Shown: positions 9,243 through 38,249, numbered from the stretch's first letter. The stretch is DNA of 64,000 nt from a virus (IMGVR_UViG_3300020048_000023:1-64000); one strand, 5' to 3'. Program-made: numbers and translations. Notes: a model not told the origin generated them from the sequence alone.

Positions 9243-9326
9243 AAAATATATTATACTGAAACTGCGACGTTTACGTACAGTGGAGTGGGCGAAGAGAAAA
9301 AAAGTTGAAAATATTTTCAATATTTC

Positions 9327-9357
9327 TTTGTTTATTCAAATATTATGTCTACATTTG
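9327..9357 (+). promoter_or_regulatory. Bacteroidota sigma-70 promoter upstream of tRNA group 1
   Basis: TTTG-N19-TACATTTG; about 30 nt identical to the promoter at 38051-38082. Confidence 0.75.
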
Positions 9358-9384
9358 CAGCATAATTCAAAAAACAACATTGAT

Positions 9385-9585: not shown

Positions 9586-9636
9586 AATCAGAATAATCTG
9601 AACTTTTTACAACAACAGACTATATATTAAAAGAAA

Positions 9637-15435: not shown

Positions 15436-15651
15436 GTACTTTTTACGCCCGAGGCTGGACTACGTGGTTGACACAATAAATAATGAAGGTTGGATTGTCT
15501 TATGGTACGGTAAAGGTAGCAGCAGGCAATACACCAAACTTTTTAAGTACACACCCCAAAATTAATTAAAAAAAGTTTGATTTTTTTATCACTGATAATC
15601 AAACACTTAACGAAAATATGAAAAATATTTTCACTTTTTTTTCAAAAATGT

Positions 15652-15682
15652 TTTGCTAATTCGAAAATTATGCATACATTTG
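15652..15682 (+). promoter_or_regulatory. Bacteroidota sigma-70 promoter for leader 2
   Basis: TTTG-N19-TACATTTG. Confidence 0.75.
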
Positions 15683-15726
15683 CAGAACAATTTCAGAAAC
15701 GAAACTATATATAACAAAACGAAGTA

Positions 15727-15849
15727 ATGGAAAACTTGATTTTAGACATAAGCAAAACGAGCCAATTTTATTGGGGCGTGCCAACAACCAATCCAACCAC
15801 AGACGGTGACGGATCAGGAAGGGGTATACTATGTCGAAAGCAAAGTTAA
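15727..15849 (+). CDS. Putative attenuator leader peptide 2 MENLILDISKTSQFYWGVPTTNPTTDGDGSGRGILCRKQS
   Basis: Manual translation; Y/W/G/P/T/D core; terminator follows. Confidence 0.75.
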   Translation: MENLILDISKTSQFYWGVPTTNPTTDGDGSGRGILCRKQS

Positions 15850-15870
15850 CATTTGCGCTAAAATATAGGA

Positions 15871-15907
15871 AAGCCCCGATCTGAAAACAGTTCGGGGTTT
15901 TTTTTTT
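15871..15907 (+). terminator. Intrinsic terminator (attenuator 2)
   Basis: AAGCCCCGATCTG-AAAA-CAGTTCGGGGTTT plus T-tract. Confidence 0.85.
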
Positions 15908-15936
15908 GAAAGTTCTTTGACATTTTGTAATTAGAA

Positions 15937-16713
15937 TTATGAGCCAATCTTAACTGACGCCCATTTTTTACCGTGTAGTATGTCCGATATTATGGACTCG
16001 GAAATAGCATATTTTTTAGCAATATCTTTTTGAAAAAAGTTACGAGTAGCTAAATCACGTTTTATTTCGGCTACGGTATCTGGTGTTAGTTTTTTAACGG
16101 CGTTTCCGCTGGCATAAGTATGCTGGGCGTTTGATCTACGGGTTAAGAATTCTAAATTAGAAGACCTATTATCGGTTTTAATACCGTTAATATGATTAAC
16201 TTCTAAAGTAGGCTCCCAAGACTCTTTTTTGAACGTGATAGCGACTAAACGATGAACTCGAAAGTTTTTACGTTTACGATCATCGCCAGTTAAAGCAAGA
16301 ACAAGGTATGATTGATTGAAATTTTGACGTATCACTTTACCTGTATCATTTTGTTTAACACGACCATAGTTGGAAACAGAATATTTGGAATACCCAGCGA
16401 TAGTCAACCACTCTTCGCCTTTTAATGATTCTCCGTTTAGATTTTTGTAAAAATTTCTGGCGTAGTTATTGTAATCGTTATCAATTTTAAGTTGGTGTGA
16501 TTGGTTAAAATCAACAACAATACGTTCATTAGGTATAAAACCATCTAAATTTCCGTTTTTAACGTCGTCATAATGATCAACGCTTTCAATGTATGGTGAG
16601 CCAAAATTATTACCAATGTAAATGAACTTATCATTCCACCATTGTGCGATTTTTGTTCTACGTGAGGCGCCTAAATAATAGTCGCCATTCACTAACTCTT
16701 GTTTTTTTATCAT
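15937..16713 (-). CDS. NUMOD4/HNH homing endonuclease
   Basis: EEW..I.GY.KYSVSNYGRV; VHRLVA; VNHINGIKTDNRSSNLE. Confidence 0.85.
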   Translation of the reverse strand: MIKKQELVNGDYYLGASRRTKIAQWWNDKFIYIGNNFGSPYIESVDHYDDVKNGNLDGFIPNERIVVDFNQSHQLKIDNDYNNYARNFYKNLNGESLKGEEWLTIAGYSKYSVSNYGRVKQNDTGKVIRQNFNQSYLVLALTGDDRKRKNFRVHRLVAITFKKESWEPTLEVNHINGIKTDNRSSNLEFLTRRSNAQHTYASGNAVKKLTPDTVAEIKRDLATRNFFQKDIAKKYAISESIISDILHGKKWASVKIGS

Positions 16714-17125
16714 AATTCTTTTTATATAAATATGTCGATAGAGAATAAAAGTACGTACATTGCGAATAAAATAAACAGTTCTTAAAAATATTGAAGATTG
16801 AACGTTCGAGAAACGAAGTTGGTAATCGTAGGAATGTAGGATTTATAGTGTCCATCATTTAGAGAGTAACTAACGGCGAGTCTACTGTGACAGGTTGTAT
16901 GATCATCTTTAGCTATCACGGCTAAGCGTGAGTACAGAAAATACAGAATGGCAGATCAGCGGTTTTTGGTGTAACAACACACCTACGCGGCGGAGTTTCG
17001 AGGATAACCCAGATAGAGGAAGGTGATTCAGCCAAAGGTAAACTTCAGAGCTTCGCGAGCTCTGGCATCAAAGTTCTGCGCGGAATGATGATGTTGCTTT
17101 TTCGAACAGGGCTCTGGGTTCTAAT

Positions 17126-17233
17126 GCGGTGATAGTATAATGGTAGTGCGCCTAACCAAATGCAATAGCCATCCGTTTGAAGGGTGGTGAGGCAAAGTAG
17201 TCGGGAAGTAGGGTTCGATTCCCAGATACCGCT
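17126..17233 (+). ncRNA. tRNA-Gly-like RNA with anticodon loop replaced by a long hairpin
   Basis: GCGGT...ACCGC ends, D-arm-like segment, GGGTTCGATTCCC T-arm; no 7-nt anticodon loop. Confidence 0.5.
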
Positions 17234-17242
17234 CAAATTAAT

Positions 17243-17316
17243 GCGAGGATAGCTCAGTTGGTAGAGTGCCCGCCAGTGGGGTGGGAAGGTCATTGGTTCG
17301 AATCCAATTCCCTGCA
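17243..17316 (+). tRNA. tRNA-like gene, possible His(GTG) with non-canonical loop
   Basis: Canonical D and T arms; CCCGC-CAGTGGG-GTGGG (A33). Confidence 0.5.
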
Positions 17317-17770
17317 CAGAATGTTGTTCTTTGAAAGTGTTTTACGCTGGATTGTAACAAATCTATGCTTAATTTGTTACAAGTTTTGTCGCAAATATAG
17401 CATATATTAGTGACAAGAAAATTAACCAAACTCACGCCAGTAATGGCTTGTAGGCGATTAATTCGCCAAAGGGGGTCGGCTAAATCCAGAGGAAATTAGA
17501 GCCATCATTGCTAATGGTCGGAGCCTTCGGGCGCTTGACGACCTTGATGAAACCCAAAACAGTTTAGACGGTTAGCAAGTCTACGACAACGAGGTAGGGG
17601 ATCAGACAGATGTAAGACGAGAAACAAAAGCCTAATTACGAAACATCGAACGACAAGTTCATTGACATATTGGAAGCCAAAAATAGTACCCAGCACCGTG
17701 AGGTAGCTGGATGATGTTTTATGTGCGGATGGTCAGGTTCATCCTGACTATCTTCACACGAAACATAAAT

Positions 17771-17854
17771 GGGTAGGTGGGTGAGTGGTTAATACCGCCA
17801 GTCTGTAAAACTGGTCGCCTTCGGCGTTCGCTGGTTCGAATCCAGCTCTACCCA
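17771..17854 (+). tRNA. tRNA-Tyr(GTA)
   Basis: CCAGT-CTGTAAA-ACTGG; long variable arm. Confidence 0.9.
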
Positions 17855-17888
17855 CAATTTTTTAATTTTTGCGTAGTATTTATGGTAT

Positions 17889-18539
17889 ATGAACCTAAAC
17901 GAAGAGCTTCAGCGCATCAAAGAGATAATGCAAGTGGATGAAATGGCTTATCCCGCCAACTTCAGCTTTGAAGAGTATGGTAATATAAGATCATTCGCTG
18001 GTAAGCTTAGATACGCTCAGGAACGCTTACTCGGTAAGGTTGGCGCTGGCTCAGGTAGAGCCGTATTTCGTGTTGACGACGAAAAGGTGCTAAAAGTAGC
18101 TATGAATGCTAAAGGCGTTGCTCAGAACGAGGCGGAATCCGATTGGGGCGCCCAAGGTTACGATGTTATTGCTAAGGTTTTCGACTCCGACAAAGATGAT
18201 GCTTGGGTTGAAATGGAACTTGCCAAAAAAGTTAATCCGAATAGATTCAAACAGTTAACGGGTGTTAGCTTGGAAGAGGTGGTAACTTGGCTTGGATACA
18301 TTACGGGAAAAGTACTTTACAGACCGCACCAAACGGTACCGAATGATTTGGGTGAAAATGAATTTGCCGAAGATTTAAGAAGCTTTGCTGCGGATTATAA
18401 TTACCCAGTACCAGGTGATTTCGGTAAGATTAATTCTTACGGTGAAGTACTTAGAAACGGTCAGCCTCGAATCGTTTTAGTTGATTTTGGGTTCAATGAT
18501 GCCACGTCTGATATACTAATTCAAACAAAAATTTATTAA
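17889..18539 (+). CDS. Protein-kinase-like fold protein with LNEELxRI leader
   Basis: GAGSGRAVF..VLKVA...N..E...DF...N.Y...VLVDFG. Confidence 0.6.
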   Translation: MNLNEELQRIKEIMQVDEMAYPANFSFEEYGNIRSFAGKLRYAQERLLGKVGAGSGRAVFRVDDEKVLKVAMNAKGVAQNEAESDWGAQGYDVIAKVFDSDKDDAWVEMELAKKVNPNRFKQLTGVSLEEVVTWLGYITGKVLYRPHQTVPNDLGENEFAEDLRSFAADYNYPVPGDFGKINSYGEVLRNGQPRIVLVDFGFNDATSDILIQTKIY

Positions 18540-18541
18540 CT

Positions 18542-18624
18542 GCCGATTTGGGACAGCGCTCGACTCCGCCCGCCTTGTAAGCGGGACGCTAACGCGCACA
18601 CTGGTTGGAATCCAGTAATCGGCT
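18542..18624 (+). tRNA. tRNA-Thr(TGT), atypical long variable region
   Basis: GCCGATT/AATCGGC acceptor; CCCGC-CTTGTAA-GCGGG. Confidence 0.6.
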
Positions 18625-18628
18625 CAAA

Positions 18629-18702
18629 GGGCGTCTGGTCGCAGGTTCGAGTCCTGCCCCGCACCTTCGGGTGAGGGTAGCTCAGTTGGATAGAGCACGC
18701 CC
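18629..18702 (+). ncRNA. Circularly permuted tRNA-like RNA (YrlA-type topology)
   Basis: GGGCGT-[T arm]-[acceptor closed by TTCG]-[D arm]-ACGCCC. Confidence 0.7.
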
Positions 18703-18719
18703 ATCGTATTTAATGTCAG

Positions 18720-18794
18720 GGGCTCAGGGACTGCTTGGGTGGTTGTCTGACTGTCACTCAGAATATCAGACGGGTTCGAATCCCGTTGGGCCCG
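18720..18794 (+). tRNA. tRNA-Asp(GTC)
   Basis: TCTGA-CTGTCAC-TCAGA; G73. Confidence 0.75.
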
Positions 18795-18960
18795 CTAAAG
18801 AATGAAAATGATCGCCTTGGACGGGCTTTGACTATGTGGCGTGCGCACAAAGCATAGTATGGCACCAGAAGATAGGGAGTAATTACCCGAAAATATGGAA
18901 AATAGGAATCATCCTGTTTGGAAGACTCGACTTCTTCATCACTTTCATTCTTTTTTACAC

Positions 18961-19036
18961 GGTTTATTGAGCCCCACGGCGTGGGAACTTGACTGTCACT
19001 CAAGTAGAACGAAGGGTTCGATCCCCTTATAGACCG
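18961..19036 (+). tRNA. tRNA-Asp(GTC)
   Basis: CTTGA-CTGTCAC-TCAAG; G73. Confidence 0.75.
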
Positions 19037-19045
19037 CTAAACTTT

Positions 19046-19216
19046 TGCGATGTAGAGCAAAGGGTCAATTTGGTTGAAGTTGTTTTATATGTTGCAGGTG
19101 AACGTATCAAGATGTACATTAGATACGGAATCCTAACACAGAAGTTAGCAATGGACAAGTTGCACAGCTCGCTGGGGCGCACCCAGAGGTTGAAGGTTCG
19201 AGTCCTTTCATCGCGA
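19046..19216 (+). ncRNA. Initiator-tRNA-like RNA with 108-nt D-loop insertion and 5-nt anticodon loop
   Basis: TGCGATG/CATCGCG; GAGC..GCTC D stem; CTGGG-GCGCA-CCCAG; T arm. Confidence 0.55.
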
Positions 19217-19221
19217 CAAAT

Positions 19222-19329
19222 GGCAATGTAGGCATAAAGTCTGAGCTTAAAGCGGAAGACGTCAGGGGGTCACCATCCCTTGATAGGAATAATGCCGTGG
19301 TTATCTGGGTTCGAGTCCCTTCAATGCCG
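19222..19329 (+). ncRNA. tRNA-like RNA (acceptor plus T arm, aberrant middle)
   Basis: GGCA..TGCC ends; GGGTTCGAGTCCC. Confidence 0.4.
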
Positions 19330-19803
19330 CAACATATCGGACAGTCCGATAAAATGTCCGTTAAATGTCCGCATAATGACTGAGATATCAGTCATTAAAA
19401 AAAATGGCTAAATACAACGTTGGCTGTGTAAGTGATTATTAATTAGGTTACTTGGGTATTTTATATCGAAAAAGCTAATGTATGAGATATCAGTCATTAT
19501 ACGGACAAATGAAATGTCCGCTTAATGTCCGTATAAGGATTCAAATGTTGGTTCCTGTGTTCGATAATGGGGGTTAACGACGAAAATAATAGCCATATCC
19601 GACATTAAGGAAATAACGTGTCGGGTGGCACGACATTAAATTATGGTTATGTCGTGTAAACGTCTGGATAACGACAGTAGCGCGGAAAAACTGTCAATAA
19701 TACAAATGTCACAAACACCTATAAAAGGCGTTTACTGGCGAATGTGACCAAAACTATAATACGGCAGCTGCGGGTCGGAAGTGCCGTAGATTTGGAAATA
19801 TAT

Positions 19804-19879
19804 AGGGTAGTAGAGGAGCTTGGCTTATCTCGCTTGATTTGGGATCAAGAGCACGCGGGTTCAAATCCCGCTTACCCTA
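19804..19879 (+). tRNA. tRNA-Pro(TGG)
   Basis: CTTGA-TTTGGGA-TCAAG. Confidence 0.85.
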
Positions 19880-19885
19880 CAATAT

Positions 19886-19958
19886 AGAGTAGTAGCGCAG
19901 TTGGTAGCGTACTTGCTTCGGGAGCAAGGGGTCGTCGGTTCGAATCCGCCCTATTCTA
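19886..19958 (+). tRNA. tRNA-Pro(CGG)
   Basis: CTTGC-TTCGGGA-GCAAG. Confidence 0.85.
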
Positions 19959-20058
19959 CAGTGTTCACGTAACGTGAACTAATAAAAATAATGTTCACTA
20001 TATTATTTGTTTTTTCGTAATGTTATATATATTTATATTATGAACAAAACAATTAGCT

Positions 20059-20613
20059 ATGAGAACAAAAATAACGAAAGAACTGGAACAGCAAGTTAAA
20101 GATTTAAGATTGCAAAATTTTACTTATAGACAAATTGCTGGTAAAGTTGGGTGTAGTCTTGGTGTAATTGGTTCCATATTAGACGGTACGCATATTGCCT
20201 ATGGAACAAAAGAAAAAAAGCCACCAAAAAAATATGTATATGTGCATAATGCCACCCCAACAGTAAAAAGAATAATATCCTTACGTTTAGGTAATTTTAG
20301 AGGTAGGCAGAAAGACGGCAGTACTGGTCGTAAAAATAGTTATTTATCCACGCAGGCTGTTTTGGATAAAATAGGTAGTAATCCTATTTGTTATTTATCG
20401 GGGCGTAGTTTAGACTTGAATGATCGCAAATCATTTGCTTTAGACCACATAATTCCAGCTACTAAAGGCGGTGATAATTCTTTGGATAATTTAGATATTG
20501 TCCATTCTGACGTAAATAAAGCTAAAAATAATTTATTGAACGAAGAGTTTATTCGGTTATGCTTAGATGTTGTAACGCATAACGGATATGATTGTATTAA
20601 AAGAATAAAGTGA
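20059..20613 (+). CDS. HTH plus HNH endonuclease
   Basis: CYLSG...LDHIIPATKGGDNSLDNL...N..K. Confidence 0.8.
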   Translation: MRTKITKELEQQVKDLRLQNFTYRQIAGKVGCSLGVIGSILDGTHIAYGTKEKKPPKKYVYVHNATPTVKRIISLRLGNFRGRQKDGSTGRKNSYLSTQAVLDKIGSNPICYLSGRSLDLNDRKSFALDHIIPATKGGDNSLDNLDIVHSDVNKAKNNLLNEEFIRLCLDVVTHNGYDCIKRIK

Positions 20614-20738
20614 TATGGTTAAAACGACGATGGCTGGGTAAGGCATATACGTGTCCAAAGCGTAGAATGACCACCAGAGGTTAACCCCCGATGCAATATC
20701 TGGTAACCTTACCCACCATATCACCGAATAAGAAACAC

Positions 20739-20812
20739 AGGCGTGTAGTTCAGCGAGTTAGAATAGCGCTCTCCAAAAGCGAAGGTCGGCGGTTCGAATC
20801 CGTCCACGTCTG
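20739..20812 (+). tRNA. tRNA-Trp(CCA)
   Basis: Loop CTCCAAA. Confidence 0.9.
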
Positions 20813-20930
20813 CAAAATATAATCAGCTGTTCAATTTTTTTGCGTGTTCATTTTAAATGAAAACCGCTCTACGTTATACAAGACTTCTATAATTAACAGT
20901 AAAACAAAGTATTAACTTAAAACAAGTAAA

Positions 20931-21161
20931 ATGGAAATCGTAAGACACTTCGATTGGTTCCCTTCATTTAAGAACCAACTCGACATTATCGACAAGACCA
21001 TAGAAATCAATATAGACAGGGATCAAGTTGAAATAACCTGTGATTGGGACTATGGCTGGGGCGGAAGGGGTACAGAGCATATGTCTATGCCGCTGGCTCA
21101 ACTCAAAGCCTTAATCAAAGAATTGGAAGATTCAGAAACTGCGGCAGTAGTTCAGGGATAG
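20931..21161 (+). CDS. Hypothetical protein (3' end overlaps tRNA-Gly)
   Basis: ORF with A-rich translation start. Confidence 0.5.
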   Translation: MEIVRHFDWFPSFKNQLDIIDKTIEINIDRDQVEITCDWDYGWGGRGTEHMSMPLAQLKALIKELEDSETAAVVQG

Positions 21162-21212
21162 AATATTACCTTCCCAAGGTAAGGGTCGTGGGTTTGAGCC
21201 CCACTTGCCGCT
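21141..21212 (+). tRNA. tRNA-Gly(CCC)
   Basis: TTACC-TTCCCAA-GGTAA. Confidence 0.8.
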
Positions 21213-21264
21213 CAATATGGCTCAAAATCGGAAGGTTATGGGCTTAAATCGGATGATTGGTGAG

Positions 21265-21519
21265 CTACATCGGTGGATTATCGGTAGATTGTGGTTGAGC
21301 TTCAACCCAGTTTTCGGTGATAAGTTCAATAAGGTACTGCACGCCACCTCTTAAATTTGCCGACATATGCGCAAAATTACCAGAGTTTGCACGTTGCAGG
21401 TCACGGTTCATTGCATTAAGAAACATTAAGGCTTCGGCTTTGGACGAAGTTTCTTCTTCTCTGATAGACGTAAGAGCCTTATACATTTGACCTTCTGTTA
21501 GCTTAATAAGTTTTGGCAT
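21265..21519 (-). CDS. Hypothetical protein (IKLTE N-terminal motif)
   Basis: MPKLIKLTEGQ start after TATTTATA motif. Confidence 0.5.
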   Translation of the reverse strand: MPKLIKLTEGQMYKALTSIREEETSSKAEALMFLNAMNRDLQRANSGNFAHMSANLRGGVQYLIELITENWVEAQPQSTDNPPM

Positions 21520-21547
21520 AGCGTTTGTTTTTATATAAATATAGACA

Positions 21548-21686
21548 TGATGCTGTAAGTGATGCTGTAAGTGATGCTCTAAGTGACGCTGTAATGATGG
21601 TGTAAATGATGGTGTAAATGATGGTGTAAATGAGGGAGCAAGTGAGGGAGTAAATGAGGGAATAAGGGAGCAATTGAGGGAGCAAA
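21548..21686. repeat. Degenerate ~12-nt tandem repeat (TGATGCTGTAAG / TGATGGTGTAAA / TGAGGGAGCAAG)
   Basis: About 11 units read directly. Confidence 0.8.
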
Positions 21687-21695
21687 TAATACAAT

Positions 21696-21767
21696 GCGGG
21701 TGTAGCACAGGGGTTAGTGCGAGAGCCTTCCAAGCTTTAGACGCGGGTTCGATTCCCGCCACCCGCT
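21696..21767 (+). tRNA. tRNA-Gly(TCC)
   Basis: Loop CTTCCAA. Confidence 0.9.
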
Positions 21768-21925
21768 CAGGTGAACAAATAATGGTGAATATTAAAGTGC
21801 CTTGCCGTGCCTTGTATAGGATAAATGGGGTCGCCAGAATATAGTAATCTTGCTATAACTTAGTAACGAAGGTAGCAAGATATCAAAGATAGGGGAAAGT
21901 TGCTGATACCCCTATACCAATTAAT

Positions 21926-21998
21926 GCGGATATAGCACAGTTGGTTAGTGCGGGAGCTTGCCAAGCTTCAGACGCGAGTTCGAATCTCGCTATCCGCT
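21926..21998 (+). tRNA. tRNA-Gly(GCC)
   Basis: Loop TTGCCAA. Confidence 0.9.
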
Positions 21999-22051
21999 CA
22001 AAATAATGACGTCTTAATTTTTATGGATATACATAATATTTATAAAAAACT

Positions 22052-22618
22052 ATGGTTATGTCAATATTAACAGAAATGCGTAGATTGCGGTCTATTATGG
22101 GTTTATCCGAAGAGGTTGAGGTGGGTAATTTATATTTGACAGATGAGGAAGTTACCGAAATAATGAGTGGTTATTTGGAAGCGGCTATTTGGACGGAAGA
22201 AGAACGACTGAAAGACGAGTATGAATCTGATAAGCCATCTGACGAGTACTACAGCCCAGACGACTATGAGGACACAACCGAAAAAATTGTTAAGCAATCT
22301 AATCAACAGCCGTCACAACAATTTCAGGGTTTTAGCGTTGCTGATATTGACCCCGATTCACGAATTCAAGCTTACGTTGATATTAAGAAATTTATCCTGA
22401 CAGTAGGCGACGCAGCGGCAAGCGAAGCGATAGACGACCAAGGTCTTAAAAGGCTAGGTATGGATATTTGGTTAAGCAGAAATAGTCATGGCTCTGGATT
22501 CTTCGACCATTCATACGAAAATGAAGAAATATTGATGGGTACAGCACATAATTTAGGCGGAGTTGATTTGTATTTAGGTGATGATAACAAGTTGTATTTC
22601 AGCAACGGACACAAATAA
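22052..22618 (+). CDS. Hypothetical protein (acidic; RNxHGxGFxD motif)
   Basis: ORF after TATTTATA; ILTEMRRLRSIM leader. Confidence 0.6.
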   Translation: MVMSILTEMRRLRSIMGLSEEVEVGNLYLTDEEVTEIMSGYLEAAIWTEEERLKDEYESDKPSDEYYSPDDYEDTTEKIVKQSNQQPSQQFQGFSVADIDPDSRIQAYVDIKKFILTVGDAAASEAIDDQGLKRLGMDIWLSRNSHGSGFFDHSYENEEILMGTAHNLGGVDLYLGDDNKLYFSNGHK

Positions 22619-22661
22619 ATTTCGATCATAAAAAATTATTTTCACTTTTTTTTCACTAATA

Positions 22662-22693
22662 TTTGGTAGTGTCAAAAATTGTGTGTATATTTG
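22662..22693 (+). promoter_or_regulatory. Bacteroidota sigma-70 promoter for ncRNA/Ro60 locus
   Basis: TTTG-N20-TATATTTG. Confidence 0.75.
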
Positions 22694-22715
22694 CATCGTT
22701 TTAAAGTTTAAAGAT

Positions 22716-22802
22716 GGTTGACGGTGGTGTTAGCTAAGAGTTACATCAAATCTAACTTTTAATTGGACAAAAACGCTCTAAGCGCCAGTTTCCCCGTCAG
22801 CC
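22716..22802 (+). ncRNA. Candidate Y-like RNA 1 with tRNA-Lys(TTT)-like anticodon stem-loop
   Basis: GGTTGACGG/CCGTCAGCC ends; GAGTTAC..AAACGCTC core; TCTAA-CTTTTAA-TTGGA. Confidence 0.65.
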
Positions 22803-22929
22803 GCCTTTTTTAAAGAAATTAAGAAATACCCCAATTATACTAGTAAATAAGCTGCTATCCTAACTCATCACCCAACAGCTTGAAATACGGTCACAAGGTT
22901 AGGAGCTAATTAATAGGGGTAAAAAAATG

Positions 22930-23024
22930 AAATAAACAGTGGTGTTAGTTAAGAGTTACTTCAATCCGACTCGTAAATCAGAAACTGAAACCAAACGCTC
23001 TTGACGCCTTTTCCCTGTTTGTTT
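22930..23024 (+). ncRNA. Candidate Y-like RNA 2
   Basis: AAATAAACAG/CTGTTTGTTT ends; same core; CTCGTAA loop. Confidence 0.65.
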
Positions 23025-23029
23025 TATAT

Positions 23030-23118
23030 GTCTGTGTAGCTCAGTTGGTTAGAGCGACTGCCGAGGGAAAGTAATTTCCCAGAGCGGGGGGTCAGCGGTT
23101 CAAGTCCGTTCAAAGGCA
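23030..23118 (+). ncRNA. tRNA-like RNA lacking a normal anticodon arm
   Basis: TAGCTCAGTTGGTTAGAGC D arm; GGTTCAAGTCC T arm; GGGAAA/TTTCCC hairpin in place of anticodon loop. Confidence 0.55.
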
Positions 23119-23356
23119 CTGGTTCATTGAAACACTTTTGATTGAAGCAAACTAAAAAAGGAATGTGGTTGGTTAACCGACACCGCAGAAGTAATTAGGT
23201 TCCTTTAGACTCCTAAGCAAGGTCGTTGTTTTGTGGATAGGTAAATGTTATCCAGTCGTCACGGCTGGTGAGGCGGTGTACGTGGGTTTGGGCGCGTATA
23301 TTTATTCCGTATGCTAAGCGGACAAAGACTTTTCAATGAACCCACCTATAAAAAAT

Positions 23357-23442
23357 AAACCGATAATGGCGCTTGATAGAGTTACATCAACAAATTTGGA
23401 TTTTGCTAAAAACGCTCTGTCGTCCTTTTCCTTAACGGTTTT
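23357..23442 (+). ncRNA. Candidate Y-like RNA 3
   Basis: AAACCG/CGGTTT ends; same core; CAAA-TTTGGAT-TTTG. Confidence 0.6.
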
Positions 23443-23460
23443 TTATTTACACTACAAACT

Positions 23461-23655
23461 ATGACACCAGAACAAGCGTCACAAAAACAAATGGCAATAG
23501 CATTTGCCGCCGAGTTTGCCTATTACAAGGCAAACCCCGAAACAAGAATGGACGTACCTTCTATGGTGTACGAAAACGCTGAGAAGGCGTTTAACAACTG
23601 GATAGAGCGGCACAATGAAAACCCATCCTATGCGGTAAACCCGTTTCAAAAATAA
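23461..23655 (+). CDS. Small hypothetical protein
   Basis: ORF upstream of TROVE gene. Confidence 0.45.
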   Translation: MTPEQASQKQMAIAFAAEFAYYKANPETRMDVPSMVYENAEKAFNNWIERHNENPSYAVNPFQK

Positions 23656-23689
23656 TTCAATAATAATAACCAATAAAAACCACGTATTT

Positions 23690-25129
23690 ATGTCAAAATT
23701 AAATCCGACCATCAAGCGAGAATCCAAATTCTCAACCCAGCGTTTAGCTGGTGGGTCTGGCGCTTTGGCTGCTAAGCAGGACGCCGAATCCTTGTTACGT
23801 AGGGCTGTTATGGCTTGCCTTTTATGGGAAGACCTGTTCTACAGCTCTGGTACCGATAACTCAGATAACATTGCAAAGTTGATCGCACAGGTTGACCCGC
23901 AGACTGTCGCTGAGATCGCTATTGAGGCTCGCGTTGCCCAGAAATTGAGGCACGTACCTTTGTACATCGCTTCCGAAATGCTCAAGCACCCTAAACATAG
24001 GGAATACGTAGGCGAAGTTCTTCCGCTGGTTATCACACGTGCCGACCAGATCACCGACTTCCTTTCTCTGTACTGGAAGGCTAACGGCAAGAGGAAAGCG
24101 ATTGCCGCACAGGTTAAAAAGGGCTTGGCTGATTCCTTCCATAACTTCAACGAGTACAAGCTCGCTAAGTATGACAGGGATTCCGAAATCAAGTTACGTG
24201 ACGTTATGCGTCTTGTACACCCTAAGCCGAGGAACGCCGCAGAAAGCGAACTGTTCGATAAGGTTATCAAGAGGACTCTGGAAACCCCAGATACTTGGGA
24301 AGTAGCTTTAAGCACAGGACGTGATAAGAAAGCAACTTGGGAACGTCTTATCGTTGAAGGTAAATTGGGTGCGCTTGCGTTCCTGAGGAACCTGAGCAAT
24401 ATGACCAAGGTTGGTGTTGATCACAACATAATCCGTCAGGGTTTTGAATCGATCTACTCAGCAATGTTGCTCCCGTTGAACTTCACCACGGCTGCCGCAC
24501 AGGTACCTGTATTCAAGGCTGATATCGAAAAGATGATGCTGAGGACTTACGCAGGATTACCTAAGCTTACAGGCTACACTATCTTCGTCGTAGACGTATC
24601 GGGTAGTATGAACTCTCGTACCAGCTCAAAGAGCACCGTGAACAGGATTGACGCAGCTTCAGCTATGGCTGTATTAGCAGCAAACCAGTGTGAAAACATT
24701 GATATCTATTGTACAGCAGGTAGTGACAGCTCACGTATCCATCAGACTGCAAAAATCGATTACCCGCAGAAGGGTTTCGGCTTGATCGACCAGATCGCTG
24801 AGTACAAACATATGGGTAAGAAAAGTTTAGGTGGTGGTGGTATCTTCACACGTCAGTGCTTGGAGTTCATCGCTACGCAAACTACAAAAGTGCCTGATAG
24901 GATTATCATCTTCTCAGACTCTCAGGACTGCGATTACCCGCACCTGAGGGTTCCGAAACCGTTCGGTAAGAACAACTACATCGTAGACGTATCGGCTGAA
25001 AAGCACGGCGTAAACTACAAGGGTGTATGGACGGCAGAAATCAGTGGTATGTCGGATCACTTCCTGACCTACATCGCTTCACTGGAAGGGTTGCAAAACA
25101 CTTTCGAAGACGACGATTCACTGCAATAA
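23690..25129 (+). CDS. rsr: Ro60/TROVE RNA-binding protein with vWA domain
   Basis: CLLWEDLFY, LRHVPL, YKLAKY, LRDVMRLVHPKP, PDTWEVALS, LRNL; DVSGSM MIDAS motif. Confidence 0.9.
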   Translation: MSKLNPTIKRESKFSTQRLAGGSGALAAKQDAESLLRRAVMACLLWEDLFYSSGTDNSDNIAKLIAQVDPQTVAEIAIEARVAQKLRHVPLYIASEMLKHPKHREYVGEVLPLVITRADQITDFLSLYWKANGKRKAIAAQVKKGLADSFHNFNEYKLAKYDRDSEIKLRDVMRLVHPKPRNAAESELFDKVIKRTLETPDTWEVALSTGRDKKATWERLIVEGKLGALAFLRNLSNMTKVGVDHNIIRQGFESIYSAMLLPLNFTTAAAQVPVFKADIEKMMLRTYAGLPKLTGYTIFVVDVSGSMNSRTSSKSTVNRIDAASAMAVLAANQCENIDIYCTAGSDSSRIHQTAKIDYPQKGFGLIDQIAEYKHMGKKSLGGGGIFTRQCLEFIATQTTKVPDRIIIFSDSQDCDYPHLRVPKPFGKNNYIVDVSAEKHGVNYKGVWTAEISGMSDHFLTYIASLEGLQNTFEDDDSLQ

Positions 25130-25225
25130 CCCAATCCTGAAAGGGAATAACAATGAAGCCGCTCCATTTCCAAAGTGGTCTTTTTTGCGAAAAGTACCTA
25201 TAAACGGTACTTTTCGCATTTTTAT

Positions 25226-25301
25226 GCCCGCGTAGCTCAGTTGATAGAGCAACGCACCCGTAATGCGTGGGTCGCTGGTTTGAGTCCAGCCGTGGGCTCC
25301 A
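25226..25301 (+). tRNA. tRNA-Thr(CGT)
   Basis: ACGCA-CCCGTAA-TGCGT; encoded CCA. Confidence 0.8.
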
Positions 25302-25304
25302 TTT

Positions 25305-25378
25305 GCCGACATAGCTCAGTTGGTAGCAGCGTTACCTCGGTAAGGTAAAGGTCGCCAGTTCAAGTCTGGCTGTCGGCT
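25305..25378 (+). tRNA. tRNA-Thr(GGT)
   Basis: TTACC-TCGGTAA-GGTAA. Confidence 0.8.
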
Positions 25379-25422
25379 CAAACATTTTGTAATATCCTAA
25401 TATTTATAATAAAATACAAGAT

Positions 25423-36767: not shown

Positions 36768-38025
36768 ACTGTGCGTAACCCCATTCTGTAAGGAAATAAC
36801 AACATAATCGGTACATTTCTCTTAAACAATTGTACTGTGCGTAACCCCATTCTGTAAGGAAATAACAACTAACCATCGGGTTCTCCTTACCGTTCCCAAC
36901 TGTGCGTAACCCCATTCTGTAAGGAAATAGTAATACATATGCGGTTGAGTTTGCATTAGTTTTTATTGCGCATAAACCCATTCTGTAAGGAAATAATAAT
37001 CACTGACCAATTACCAGATCAGTCCAGTTAGAGTAACCCCATTCTGTAAGGAAATAACAACGAGTGATTTAAGGTGCCCGCCTCGAATACGACTGTGTGT
37101 AACCTCATTCTGTAAGGAAATAATAATTATGATAATTGAGCAGAGCCAGAGTCTTATACTGTGTGTAATCCCGTTCTGTAAGGAAATAATAAGTAGTAAA
37201 ATAAATGGCGCAATACCTTAAAAACTGCGCGTAACCCCATTCTGTAAGGAAATAATAATACACAAACGAAGGAGTAACCCATAACGTCAACTGTGTGTAA
37301 CCCTATTCTGTAAGGAAATAACAACATCGAAAAGATCAGGCAAATAGAAGCTTCAATTGTGCATAACCCAATTCTGTAAGGAAATAAAAACTTTTCGAAA
37401 GGGTTAAAGGTGTTGAACTATATGTAACCCTATTCTGTAAGGAAATAACAACTACCGACACCCTCGAACAAAGCTATTACCTACTGTGTGTAACCCTATT
37501 CTGTAAGGAAATAACAACTAATCGAAGTTGAACACATAAGCTCTAAAAACTGTGCATAACCCTATTCTGTAAGGAAATAACAACGACGGAATAATAAACC
37601 TCTGGTTGGAAAAACTGTGTGTAGCCCCATTCTGTAAGGAAATAATAATACATCGCAGGTAATCGCATTGCCAACTGTACGTAACCCTATTCTGTAAGGA
37701 AATAAAAATAGTTGTATTTGCACAGCGCCACAACCAGCAATGTGTGTAGCCCCATTCTGTAAGGAAATAACAATCAGAAACTCATTATGCTATGCTTAGC
37801 TAATATAACCTCATTCTGTAAGGAAATAAAAATAAGGAGCAATTCAAGAAGGTTGACTTAGATACGGTGCGTAACCACATTCTGTAAGGAAATAATAATA
37901 TGTACACCAGTGCAGTATCATCAGTGCACTGCGCATAACCCCATTCTGTAAGGAAATAATAATAATCAACACTTTAACCGAAAGATAAAACCATACATAA
38001 CCCTATTCTGTAAGGAAATTAAAAA
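36768..38025. CRISPR. CRISPR array: 20 degenerate 36-nt repeats (consensus ACTGTGYGTAACCCYATTCTGTAAGGAAATAAYAAY), 19 spacers mostly 29-30 nt
   Basis: Repeats at 36768, 36834, 36899, 36965 ... 37990; core TTCTGTAAGGAAAT invariant. Confidence 0.95.
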
Positions 38026-38050
38026 TAATTTAAAGTTTTTTTCACAAAAG

Positions 38051-38082
38051 CTTGTTTTATTCAAATATTATGTCTACATTTG
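38051..38082 (+). promoter_or_regulatory. Bacteroidota sigma-70 promoter for leader 3
   Basis: (C)TTG-N20-TACATTTG. Confidence 0.7.
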
Positions 38083-38123
38083 CAGCACTTTTTGAAACTA
38101 ACAACTATATATAAGAAAATACA

Positions 38124-38249
38124 ATGAAAAAGATCACCTACATAACCAGTTCCAATAACCTTATTCTGAAAGGAAATAACAATAGTTGTTTGGAAGCATC
38201 GTCAGAGGCGTTAGCCACTACGAATGGAATCGGTATGTACGTGAGGTAA
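38124..38249 (+). CDS. Putative attenuator leader peptide 3 MKKITYITSSNNLILKGNNNSCLEASSEALATTNGIGMYVR
   Basis: Manual translation; S/C/L/E/A core; terminator follows. Confidence 0.8.
   Translation: MKKITYITSSNNLILKGNNNSCLEASSEALATTNGIGMYVR

What the first reader, a model, noticed from the sequence alone, without database searches (positions are those of the whole stretch)
15727..25378. Attenuator 2: Y/W/G/P/T/D leader ahead of the Tyr, Trp, Gly, Pro, Thr and Asp tRNAs
In the core YWGVPTTNPTTDGDGSG, 14 of 17 residues belong to the six amino acids of the tRNAs at 17771-25378 (Tyr, Thr x3, Asp x2, Pro x2, Trp, Gly x3). CGGATC (about 15810) pairs with GATCTG in the terminator arm. Caveat: the tRNAs are spread over 9.5 kb with intervening genes and promoters, so co-transcription is inferred.
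Basis: partly seen in the sequence, partly recalled or inferred. Interest (0 to 1): 0.8.

Follow-up and report, generated by a model that had tools for sequence, protein, structure and literature searches.

The report
Leader-peptide attenuator ahead of phage tRNAs
A giant phage has a 40-codon test gene and a switchable transcription stop in front of a block of its tRNA genes; the test gene is packed with codons those tRNAs read, so the phage probably makes more of them only when ribosomes decode these codons slowly, a control I found no paper describing for tRNA genes.

Summary
ORF 15727-15849 has the stated 17-residue core, and 14 of its 17 codons are read by the tRNAs at 17771-25379. No other small ORF or long-ORF window in the 161 kb record reaches this, and the match is frame-specific. 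A strong terminator follows at 15870-15907.

L2 is one of three paralogous modules in this phage. Five more turned up in three related giant phages. Across all eight, leader codons track their own tRNA block (5 of 40320 permutations do as well), and each leader's 3' end pairs best with its own terminator (3 of 40320).

The 1.2 kb gap behind L2 is an HNH homing-endonuclease insertion. A close relative (L043) lacks it, and there tRNA-like genes start 21 nt after the terminator.

Limits:
- Nothing is experimental.
- Only 9 of 12 anticodons are covered, which is not significant.
- The first two downstream genes are aberrant tRNA-like RNAs.
- The two distal Thr tRNAs lie behind a Ro60 module with its own promoter and terminator.
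- A 60% relative has the same tRNA array without any leader.

This scan has noted the same class before, in this genome and in other phages. I found no published account.

The parts
15618..15682 (+). Promoter of the RNA-gene class: AT-rich upstream element, -33 TTTG (15652-15655) and -7 TAnnTTTG box (15675-15682)
   Evidence: The stretch is repeated at 9314-9375, 22632-22695 and 38018-38119. It matches the Bacteroidota-type consensus. It is nearly identical in L043.
15704..15714 (+). 11-nt 5' box shared by all three leaders of this phage
   Evidence: Exact matches in the window occur only at 9619, 15704 and 38104, each 9-14 nt before a leader start codon. The same box precedes two leaders of G003.
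15727..15849 (+). Leader ORF L2, 40 codons (P0001)
   Evidence: Translation. Three natural variants of 39-40 codons keep the frame.
15769..15819 (+). Codon-dense core, codons 15-31: 14 of 17 are read by the downstream tRNAs
15810..15825 (+). Region 2: near copy of the terminator 3' arm, forming the 5' strand of the antiterminator
   Evidence: Duplex with 15873-15883 of -14.7 kcal/mol, the best value in both its row and its column of the 8 x 8 matrix. Folds.
15829..15865 (+). Two nested hairpins inside the antiterminator; they enclose the last leader codons and the stop codon (15847-15849)
   Evidence: Folds.
15870..15907 (+). Intrinsic terminator: 13-14 bp G+C-rich stem, 4-nt loop, run of 10 T
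   Evidence: About -17 kcal/mol. Conserved in L043.
15937..16713 (-). HNH_3/NUMOD4 homing endonuclease, part of a 1.2 kb insertion (15908-17125) that is absent from L043
   Evidence: Pfam hits. BLAST and alignment against L043.
17126..17235 (+). Atypical tRNA-like gene X. In L043 it starts 21 nt after the terminator; here it carries an extra 25-nt hairpin.
17243..17317 (+). His-type tRNA with A at position 33. Its L043 homologue has an 18-nt insert in the anticodon region.
17318..17579 (+). Conserved non-coding stretch, 74% identical to L043, with no Rfam match
17771..21999 (+). tRNA array Tyr, Thr-UGU, Asp x2, Pro x2, Trp, Gly x3, interspersed with + strand ORFs including a second HNH gene
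   Evidence: L044 has the same order. No full promoter consensus and no strong terminator lies inside the array.
22632..25223 (+). Ro60/TROVE module with its own copy of the promoter and a strong terminator (25186-25223). It is an insertion relative to L044.
25226..25379 (+). tRNA-Thr CGU and GGU. They are contiguous with Gly-GCC in L044 but cut off here by the Ro60 module.

Best explanation
L2 is a ribosome-mediated (leader-peptide) transcription attenuator. It gates read-through from the promoter at 15652-15682 into the RNA-gene array behind it: tRNA-like X, the His-type tRNA, then Tyr through Gly-GCC.

The proposed steps are inferred, not shown:
1. The leader is translated as it is made.
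2. If the ribosome moves quickly through codons 15-31 and on to the stop codon at 15847-15849, it unwinds the hairpins inside the antiterminator. The 5' arm of the terminator (15873-15883) is then free to pair with its 3' arm, and transcription ends in the T run.
3. If decoding of the Tyr, Trp, Gly, Pro, Thr or Asp codons is slow, the ribosome stalls upstream of region 2 (15810-15825). Slow decoding would follow from scarce, cleaved or uncharged tRNAs.
4. Region 2 then pairs with the terminator's 5' arm, the terminator cannot form, and the polymerase runs on into the tRNA genes.
5. The new tRNAs restore decoding and shut the switch. This gives product feedback on tRNA supply.

In this genome a homing-endonuclease gene has inserted between the switch and the array, and a Ro60 module has cut off the last two Thr tRNAs.
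For: - Anatomy: promoter, 5' box, 40-codon ORF, strong terminator and a competing 11-bp pairing.
- Codon density: the genome-wide maximum, and frame-specific.
- Best block: L2 matches its own block far better than the other two blocks, 17 cognate codons against 5 and 4.
- Paralogues: L1 and L3 lie about 25 nt ahead of their tRNA blocks, and each covers 7 of 7 anticodons.
- Relatives: five more modules in G001, G002 and G003 carry other amino-acid sets. Leader-to-block matching is equalled or beaten by only 5 of 40320 permutations. Leader-to-own-terminator pairing is equalled or beaten by only 3 of 40320.
- L043 (87% neighbouring protein) has the same module with no HNH gene, and tRNA-like genes start 21 nt after the T run.
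- Four natural leader variants differ almost only in codons 8-22. They keep the frame through 3-nt indels and stay rich in the same amino-acid set, while the flanks are about 100% identical.
- Between 15908 and 22000 there is no full promoter consensus and no strong + strand terminator.
Against: - No transcript or ribosome data exist.
- 1.2 kb carrying an opposite-strand HNH gene separates the terminator from the first RNA gene.
- The first two downstream genes are aberrant tRNA-like RNAs, and the leader has no His codon.
- Anticodon coverage of 9 of 12 is not significant.
- The core contains Val, Asn and Ser codons, and Phe sits just before it. This record has no tRNA for any of these.
- L044 has the same tRNA array with no leader or terminator.
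- The stop codon lies 22 nt past region 2. A ribosome at the stop does not cover region 2 directly, and my simple masking model predicts some upstream pairing of the terminator's 5' arm at every ribosome position.
- Part of the Pro/Thr and Gly/Asp richness sits in C-rich and G-rich strands that also pair with each other, so these codons are not independent draws.
Confidence: 0.68

Rival explanations
1. The attenuator is real but decoupled in this genome. After the HNH insertion, L2 only makes a short terminated transcript or antisense RNA to the HNH gene. The tRNAs from Tyr onward are transcribed from other, unrecognised promoters.
For: A 1.2 kb insertion with a convergent gene. L044 expresses the same array without any leader, and 50 nt upstream of Tyr are conserved between L044 and this phage. 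Two moderate hairpins with short T runs lie at 17064-17102 and 17681-17720.
Against: No full promoter consensus lies between 15908 and 22000, although the record has 76 such matches on the + strand. L044 carries an extra AT-rich stretch of about 75 nt with a near-consensus -7 box just upstream of Tyr, and this phage lacks it. Homing endonuclease genes usually insert without disabling their neighbours (general knowledge).
Confidence: 0.15
2. The ORF is a stand-alone gene for a small protein, with its own promoter and terminator. The peptide itself is the product, and its composition only happens to resemble the downstream tRNA set.
For: The N- and C-terminal thirds of the peptide are conserved in four variants. 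The unit is self-contained.
Against: The database of 5.8 billion proteins holds no family beyond two near-identical homologues. The three paralogous units conserve nucleotides, not peptide, at the 3' end. That conserved stretch is a copy of each unit's own terminator arm. Composition tracks the tRNA block in eight modules.
Confidence: 0.08
3. It is an untranslated RNA switch or protein-binding leader. The apparent codon bias would be a by-product of a C/A-rich strand pairing with a G-rich strand.
For: Eight of the fourteen matching codons lie in a CA-rich run that pairs with the G-rich region 2.
Against: The match is frame-specific. The ORF stays open through a hypervariable cassette with 3-nt indels. 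Other modules of the family match tRNA sets such as Ala/Phe/Asp/Glu or Ser/His/Trp/Asn/Arg, which need no such strand bias. No Rfam family matches.
Confidence: 0.06
4. Chance: an ordinary intergenic ORF next to an ordinary terminator.
For: Anticodon coverage is not significant.
Against: The codon density is the genome-wide maximum. The architecture is repeated three times in this genome and five times elsewhere, and two independent permutation tests give about 1e-4.
Confidence: 0.03

Closest known systems
Multivalent leader-peptide attenuators of enterobacterial amino-acid operons (thrL, ilvL of ilvGMEDA; also trpL, hisL, leuL, pheL)
   Same: A short translated leader rich in the sensed codons, an intrinsic terminator, and an alternative pairing that blocks the terminator. 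Ribosome position is the signal.
   Different: The genes behind the switch are tRNA genes rather than biosynthetic enzymes, so the product feeds back directly on decoding. Six amino acids are sampled instead of one to three. The host type has no Shine-Dalgarno-led initiation. The stop codon sits inside the antiterminator hairpin rather than next to region 2. Membership of the mechanism class is inferred from sequence only.
The L1 and L3 modules of this same phage (9637-9732 and 38124-38249), and the modules found here in G001, G002 and G003
   Same: The G000 modules share the promoter class and the box after the terminator. The 5' box is also shared by two G003 modules. All eight have a region-2 copy of the terminator's 3' arm and codon content matched to the tRNA block behind them.
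   Different: L2 is the only one separated from its array by an inserted gene. It has the largest amino-acid set and incomplete anticodon coverage, and it carries three more codons after region 2.
Anabaena sp. PCC 7120 trn operon, a tRNA array induced by translational stress (PMC8421152, PMC10272220)
   Same: An accessory tRNA array that is switched on when translation is impaired.
   Different: Control there is by the repressor TrcR, which binds direct repeats over the promoter. PMC8421152 contains neither 'attenuat' nor 'leader peptide' (abstract). No leader ORF or terminator switch is involved.
T-box riboswitches
   Same: They sense tRNA status and act through a terminator/antiterminator choice.
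   Different: T-boxes bind uncharged tRNA directly through a specifier loop and need no translation. No T-box model matches the window at Rfam's gathering score.

Membership tests
Ribosome-mediated leader-peptide transcription attenuator | A short ORF with a start codon lies in the 5' leader of the transcript | tested here: met
   The 40-codon ORF starts about 37 nt after the predicted transcription start. The frame is kept in four natural variants despite a hypervariable cassette.
Ribosome-mediated leader-peptide transcription attenuator | A run of codons for the sensed amino acids or tRNAs | tested here: met
   14 of 17 codons match, the genome-wide maximum and frame-specific. Anticodon coverage of 9 of 12 is not significant.
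Ribosome-mediated leader-peptide transcription attenuator | An intrinsic terminator lies between the leader and the regulated genes | tested here: met
   15870-15907, about -17 kcal/mol, with a run of 10 T.
Ribosome-mediated leader-peptide transcription attenuator | An antiterminator pairing that excludes the terminator | tested here: met
   An 11-bp duplex of 15810-15825 with 15873-15883, -14.7 kcal/mol. Own-terminator specificity across eight modules is equalled or beaten by only 3 of 40320 permutations.
Ribosome-mediated leader-peptide transcription attenuator | Ribosome position decides which structure forms (a stalled ribosome frees region 2; a ribosome at the stop codon prevents 2:3 pairing) | tested here: inconclusive
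   In masked folds, region 2 pairs with the terminator's 5' arm for most stalls at codons 5-28 (another upstream G-run pairs instead at codons 8-11). However, some upstream pairing is predicted at all positions. The stop codon is 22 nt past region 2, so occlusion would act by melting the inner hairpins.
Ribosome-mediated leader-peptide transcription attenuator | The regulated genes are co-transcribed directly downstream | tested here: inconclusive
   This genome has a 1.2 kb HNH insertion, and no consensus promoter or strong terminator before 22000. In L043 the first RNA gene starts 21 nt after the T run.
Ribosome-mediated leader-peptide transcription attenuator | Read-through rises when the cognate charged tRNA is limiting | not testable with these tools
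   This needs infected cells or a reporter assay.
T-box riboswitch | Match to the T-box leader model (specifier loop, T-box sequence) | tested here: not met
   The Rfam gathering-threshold scan of the whole window returns only tRNA hits.
RiPP precursor or other small secreted peptide gene | Adjacent maturation or export genes, and a conserved peptide family | tested here: not met
   The neighbours are a DUF5131 protein, small unknown ORFs and an HNH endonuclease. Only two near-identical homologues exist.

The most novel reading that the evidence does not exclude
The phage splits its tRNA repertoire into separately gated blocks. Each block sits behind a paralogous leader whose codon cassette is a readout of exactly that block. 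The cassette is hypervariable between near-identical phages because it is retuned as tRNA sets, or host attacks on tRNAs such as anticodon nucleases, change. L2 would then be a six-amino-acid sensor that lets the phage replace a depleted tRNA subset on demand, with the tRNAs themselves closing the feedback loop.
Probability: 0.45. Interest if true: 0.85.

Novelty: new variant of a known kind. Interest (0 to 1): 0.74.

Why it matters
Leader-peptide attenuation is a textbook mechanism for amino-acid operons. My library searches found no account of it gating tRNA genes. The nearest published case, the Anabaena trn array, uses a repressor.

If the switch works as read, it gives phages a direct, self-correcting way to sense decoding capacity codon by codon and to top up only the tRNAs that are short. 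That bears on two open questions: why large phages carry tRNAs, and how they cope with host shut-off or tRNA-cleaving defences.

The eight modules with different codon sets form a natural set of variants for experiment. The hypervariable cassette in L2 offers a way to watch such a sensor evolve.

Tried and rejected
- Close relatives in public collections: megablast, blastn and tblastn against GenBank phages found nothing. Exact and degenerate DNA patterns from the promoter, 5' box and conserved leader 3' end found only chance hits or nothing in viral contigs and genome contigs.
- Unreachable contigs: P0003 lies on a 226.6 kb contig and P0002 on a 3.85 kb contig. Covariation of the L2 variants with their own tRNA sets is therefore untested.
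- Identity of tRNA-like X: relaxed ARAGORN calls the L043 copy Phe(AAA) with a poor anticodon stem. The copy here has a 25-nt hairpin inserted at that spot, so I do not rely on that call.
- A sigma-70-type promoter after the terminator: the recurring box after each terminator contains a -35-like hexamer. In L1 it lies only about 8 nt before the tRNA, so I rejected a promoter role.
- G001: among 33 + strand terminators, only one leader candidate is convincing, and its significance is moderate.
- G003: its other two tRNA clusters showed no leader in my scan.
Full report
WHAT THE WINDOW IS
The window is the first 64 kb of a 160.9 kb IMG/VR virus record, estimated 67% complete. ARAGORN finds 28 tRNA genes, all on the + strand and all within the window. 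The record has 76 + strand and 8 - strand matches to the Bacteroidota-type promoter consensus (TTTG, 17-23 nt, TAnnTTTG), which fits a phage of a Bacteroidota-type host (the consensus itself is general knowledge).

OBSERVATION
- ORF 15727-15849 translates to 40 residues (P0001) and holds the quoted 17-residue core at codons 15-31.
- 14 of the 17 core codons are read by tRNAs at 17771-25379 under conservative wobble rules.
- These cognate codons make up 28% of long-ORF codons. None of 30249 17-codon windows in long ORFs reaches 14 of 17. Among 585 small ORFs in six frames, only L2 itself does. The amino-acid count gives the same result.
- The other two frames of the core give 6/16 and 2/16, the latter with a stop codon.
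- Against the three tRNA blocks of the phage, L2 has 17 cognate codons for its own block and 5 and 4 for the others.
- The weak point is completeness. Only 9 of 12 distinct anticodons are represented, which random 39-codon windows reach 17% of the time.

TERMINATOR AND COMPETING STRUCTURE
- 15870-15907 is a 13-14 bp G+C-rich hairpin followed by ten T, at about -17 kcal/mol. It is one of only two strong + strand terminators between 15.6 and 25.5 kb.
- The best duplex between the leader's last 48 nt and the terminator's 5' arm has two parts. The other is 15821-15825 with 15873-15877. Together they give 11 bp with a 5-nt bulge, -14.7 kcal/mol.
- In co-transcriptional folds (the transcript cut before the 3' arm), this helix closes a 68-nt hairpin. 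The interior of that hairpin holds two small stems and the leader's stop codon.
- A ribosome finishing the leader must melt that interior. A ribosome stalled at most positions from codon 5 to about codon 28 leaves region 2 free; at codons 8-11 my model instead pairs the arm with another upstream G-run (15770-15777).
- The simple masking model does not give a clean on/off picture for L2, so the ribosome-position step stays inconclusive.

L2 IS ONE OF A FAMILY
- The about 100 nt around the promoter recur at 9314, 22632 and 38018.
- An 11-nt box occurs exactly three times in the window, each time just before a small ORF that is followed by a strong terminator: L1 (9637-9732), L2 and L3 (38124-38249).
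- L1 and L3 end about 25 nt before their tRNA blocks, and each covers 7 of 7 anticodons (P below 0.01 each).
- The three units align from the box to the T run. What they share near the 3' end of the ORF is nucleotide sequence, not peptide sequence.

RELATIVES
- A metagenome scan with the neighbouring 223-residue protein gave L043 (87% identity, 2 kb contig) and L044 (60%).
- L043 has the same promoter, box, leader and terminator. Identity is about 100% except for codons 9-21, which are heavily substituted with a 3-nt indel that keeps the frame.
- L043 has no HNH gene. After the T run come 21 nt, then tRNA-like X, then the homologue of the His-type tRNA, then the conserved non-coding stretch.
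- So 15908-17125, which includes the HNH_3/NUMOD4 gene on the - strand, is an insertion in this phage.
- Two more leader variants exist in the protein database, P0002 and P0003. All four variants differ mainly at residues 8-22, and all keep a run rich in the same amino-acid set.
- L044 carries Tyr, Thr, Asp x2, Pro, Trp x2, Gly x3, Thr x2 in the same order within 6 kb. The Thr pair lies 210 nt after Gly-GCC there, so the Ro60 module here (own promoter at 22632-22695, TROVE gene, terminator 25186-25223) is also an insertion.
- L044 has no leader or terminator upstream of Tyr. It has instead an extra AT-rich stretch with a near-consensus -7 box that this phage lacks.

CROSS-PHAGE TEST
Searching relatives for a small ORF followed by a terminator ahead of tRNAs found five more modules:
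- one in G001, ahead of Arg, His, Ala, Gln x3, Pro, Val, Pro, Tyr, Pro;
- one in G002, ahead of Ser, His, Trp, Asn, Arg, Arg, Ser, with a cognate codon for all seven anticodons;
- three in the complete 339.6 kb G003, ahead of Tyr-Pro, Cys-Leu and Ala-Phe-Asp-Glu.

I scored eight leaders against eight blocks. The true assignment is equalled or beaten by 5 of 40320 permutations, and five leaders, including L2, score best on their own block. In every module the 3' end of the leader holds a near copy of its own terminator's 3' arm. For duplex energies of leader ends against terminator 5' arms, the true assignment is equalled or beaten by 3 of 40320 permutations. L2's own pairing is the best in both its row and its column. 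This covariation is the strongest support for both halves of the model.

CO-TRANSCRIPTION IN THIS GENOME
- Between 15908 and 22000 there is no full promoter consensus (the next is at 22662) and no strong terminator. There are moderate hairpins at 17064-17102 and 17681-17720.
- All credible genes except the HNH gene are on the + strand.
- Read-through into the array is therefore plausible but unproven.
- The Thr pair starts 3 nt after the strong terminator of the Ro60 module, so I do not assign it to L2 in this genome, although two core codons are read only by Thr-GGU.

CAVEATS
- Eight of the matching codons lie in a CA-rich run that pairs with the G-rich region 2, so codon content and RNA structure are entangled.
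- tRNA-like X and the His-type tRNA are atypical and of uncertain decoding function.
- Nothing here is experimental.

LITERATURE AND EARLIER NOTES
Seven of my full-text searches looked for leader-peptide or attenuator control of tRNA genes, in phages or bacteria, and found no paper. The nearest published system is the Anabaena trn array, induced by translational stress through the TrcR repressor. That paper does not mention attenuation. Earlier notes of this scan describe the same class for L1 and L3 of this genome and for several other phages. I treated these as leads only. The tests reported here are my own.

VERDICT
The attenuator reading is supported as the best explanation (about 0.68). 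Its reach in this genome is probably from tRNA-like X through Gly-GCC rather than to 25378. It is a new variant of a known kind of switch.

Noticed in passing
window 15752-15792, compared with L043:1430-1465: Between two phages whose promoter, 5' leader, antiterminator and terminator are about 100% identical, codons 9-21 of the leader are a hypervariable cassette with a frame-keeping 3-nt indel. P0002 and P0003 are further variants at the same spot.
   Followed up: partly
window 17126-17235 and 17243-17317; L043:1597-1781: There are two atypical tRNA-like genes. X has a weak T arm and a long variable region, and the copy here has an extra 25-nt hairpin with a 7-nt anticodon-like loop. The His-type tRNA has A at position 33, and its L043 homologue has an 18-nt insert in the anticodon region.
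   Followed up: partly
window 17318-17579: A non-coding stretch of about 260 nt is conserved with L043 at 74% identity. It has no Rfam match and no convincing ORF, so it may be a structured RNA.
   Followed up: no
window 18629-18702: A tRNA-like element with the T arm before the D arm gives a sub-threshold match to YrlA (RF02553, 39.7 bits against a cut-off of 69). It lies between tRNA-Thr and tRNA-Asp, and the phage also encodes Ro60/TROVE at 23690-25129.
   Followed up: no
window 22632-25223: The Ro60/TROVE module has its own copy of the RNA-gene promoter. It also holds repeated Y-RNA-like segments, a tRNA-like element at 23030-23118 and a strong terminator. Relative to L044 it is inserted inside the tRNA array.
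   Followed up: partly
window 36783-38019, 38163-38177 and 25134-25148: A CRISPR-like array of 20 repeats with a period of about 66 nt ends at the L3 promoter. One repeat copy lies inside the L3 leader. A degenerate copy (2 mismatches in 15) lies just after the Ro60 stop codon.
   Followed up: no
window 9815, 15912, 17326, 38313, 39686: A 9-nt box (GTTCTTTRA) follows each of the three attenuator terminators and two tRNA genes. There are 8 matches in the window against 2 expected. Its function is unknown, and it lies too close to the tRNA in L1 to be a promoter.
   Followed up: partly
window 25153-25203: A 16-codon ORF runs into the 5' arm of the strong hairpin 25186-25223, with its stop codon in the loop, directly ahead of the Thr pair. 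It has no Thr codons. L044 also has a G-run/C-run hairpin just before its Thr pair.
   Followed up: no
L130:13117-13367 (G001 193117-193367): The 250 kb relative G001 carries two tRNAs with anticodon CUA (amber readers) next to a tRNA that ARAGORN calls with a four-base anticodon. This hints at stop-codon reassignment or frameshift decoding in that phage.
   Followed up: no
L133:5964-6128 and L140 (minus strand, upstream of tRNA-His): A conserved protein of about 55 residues sits between the leader or terminator and the first tRNA in G002. A homologue sits directly upstream of a tRNA cluster in G003.
   Followed up: no
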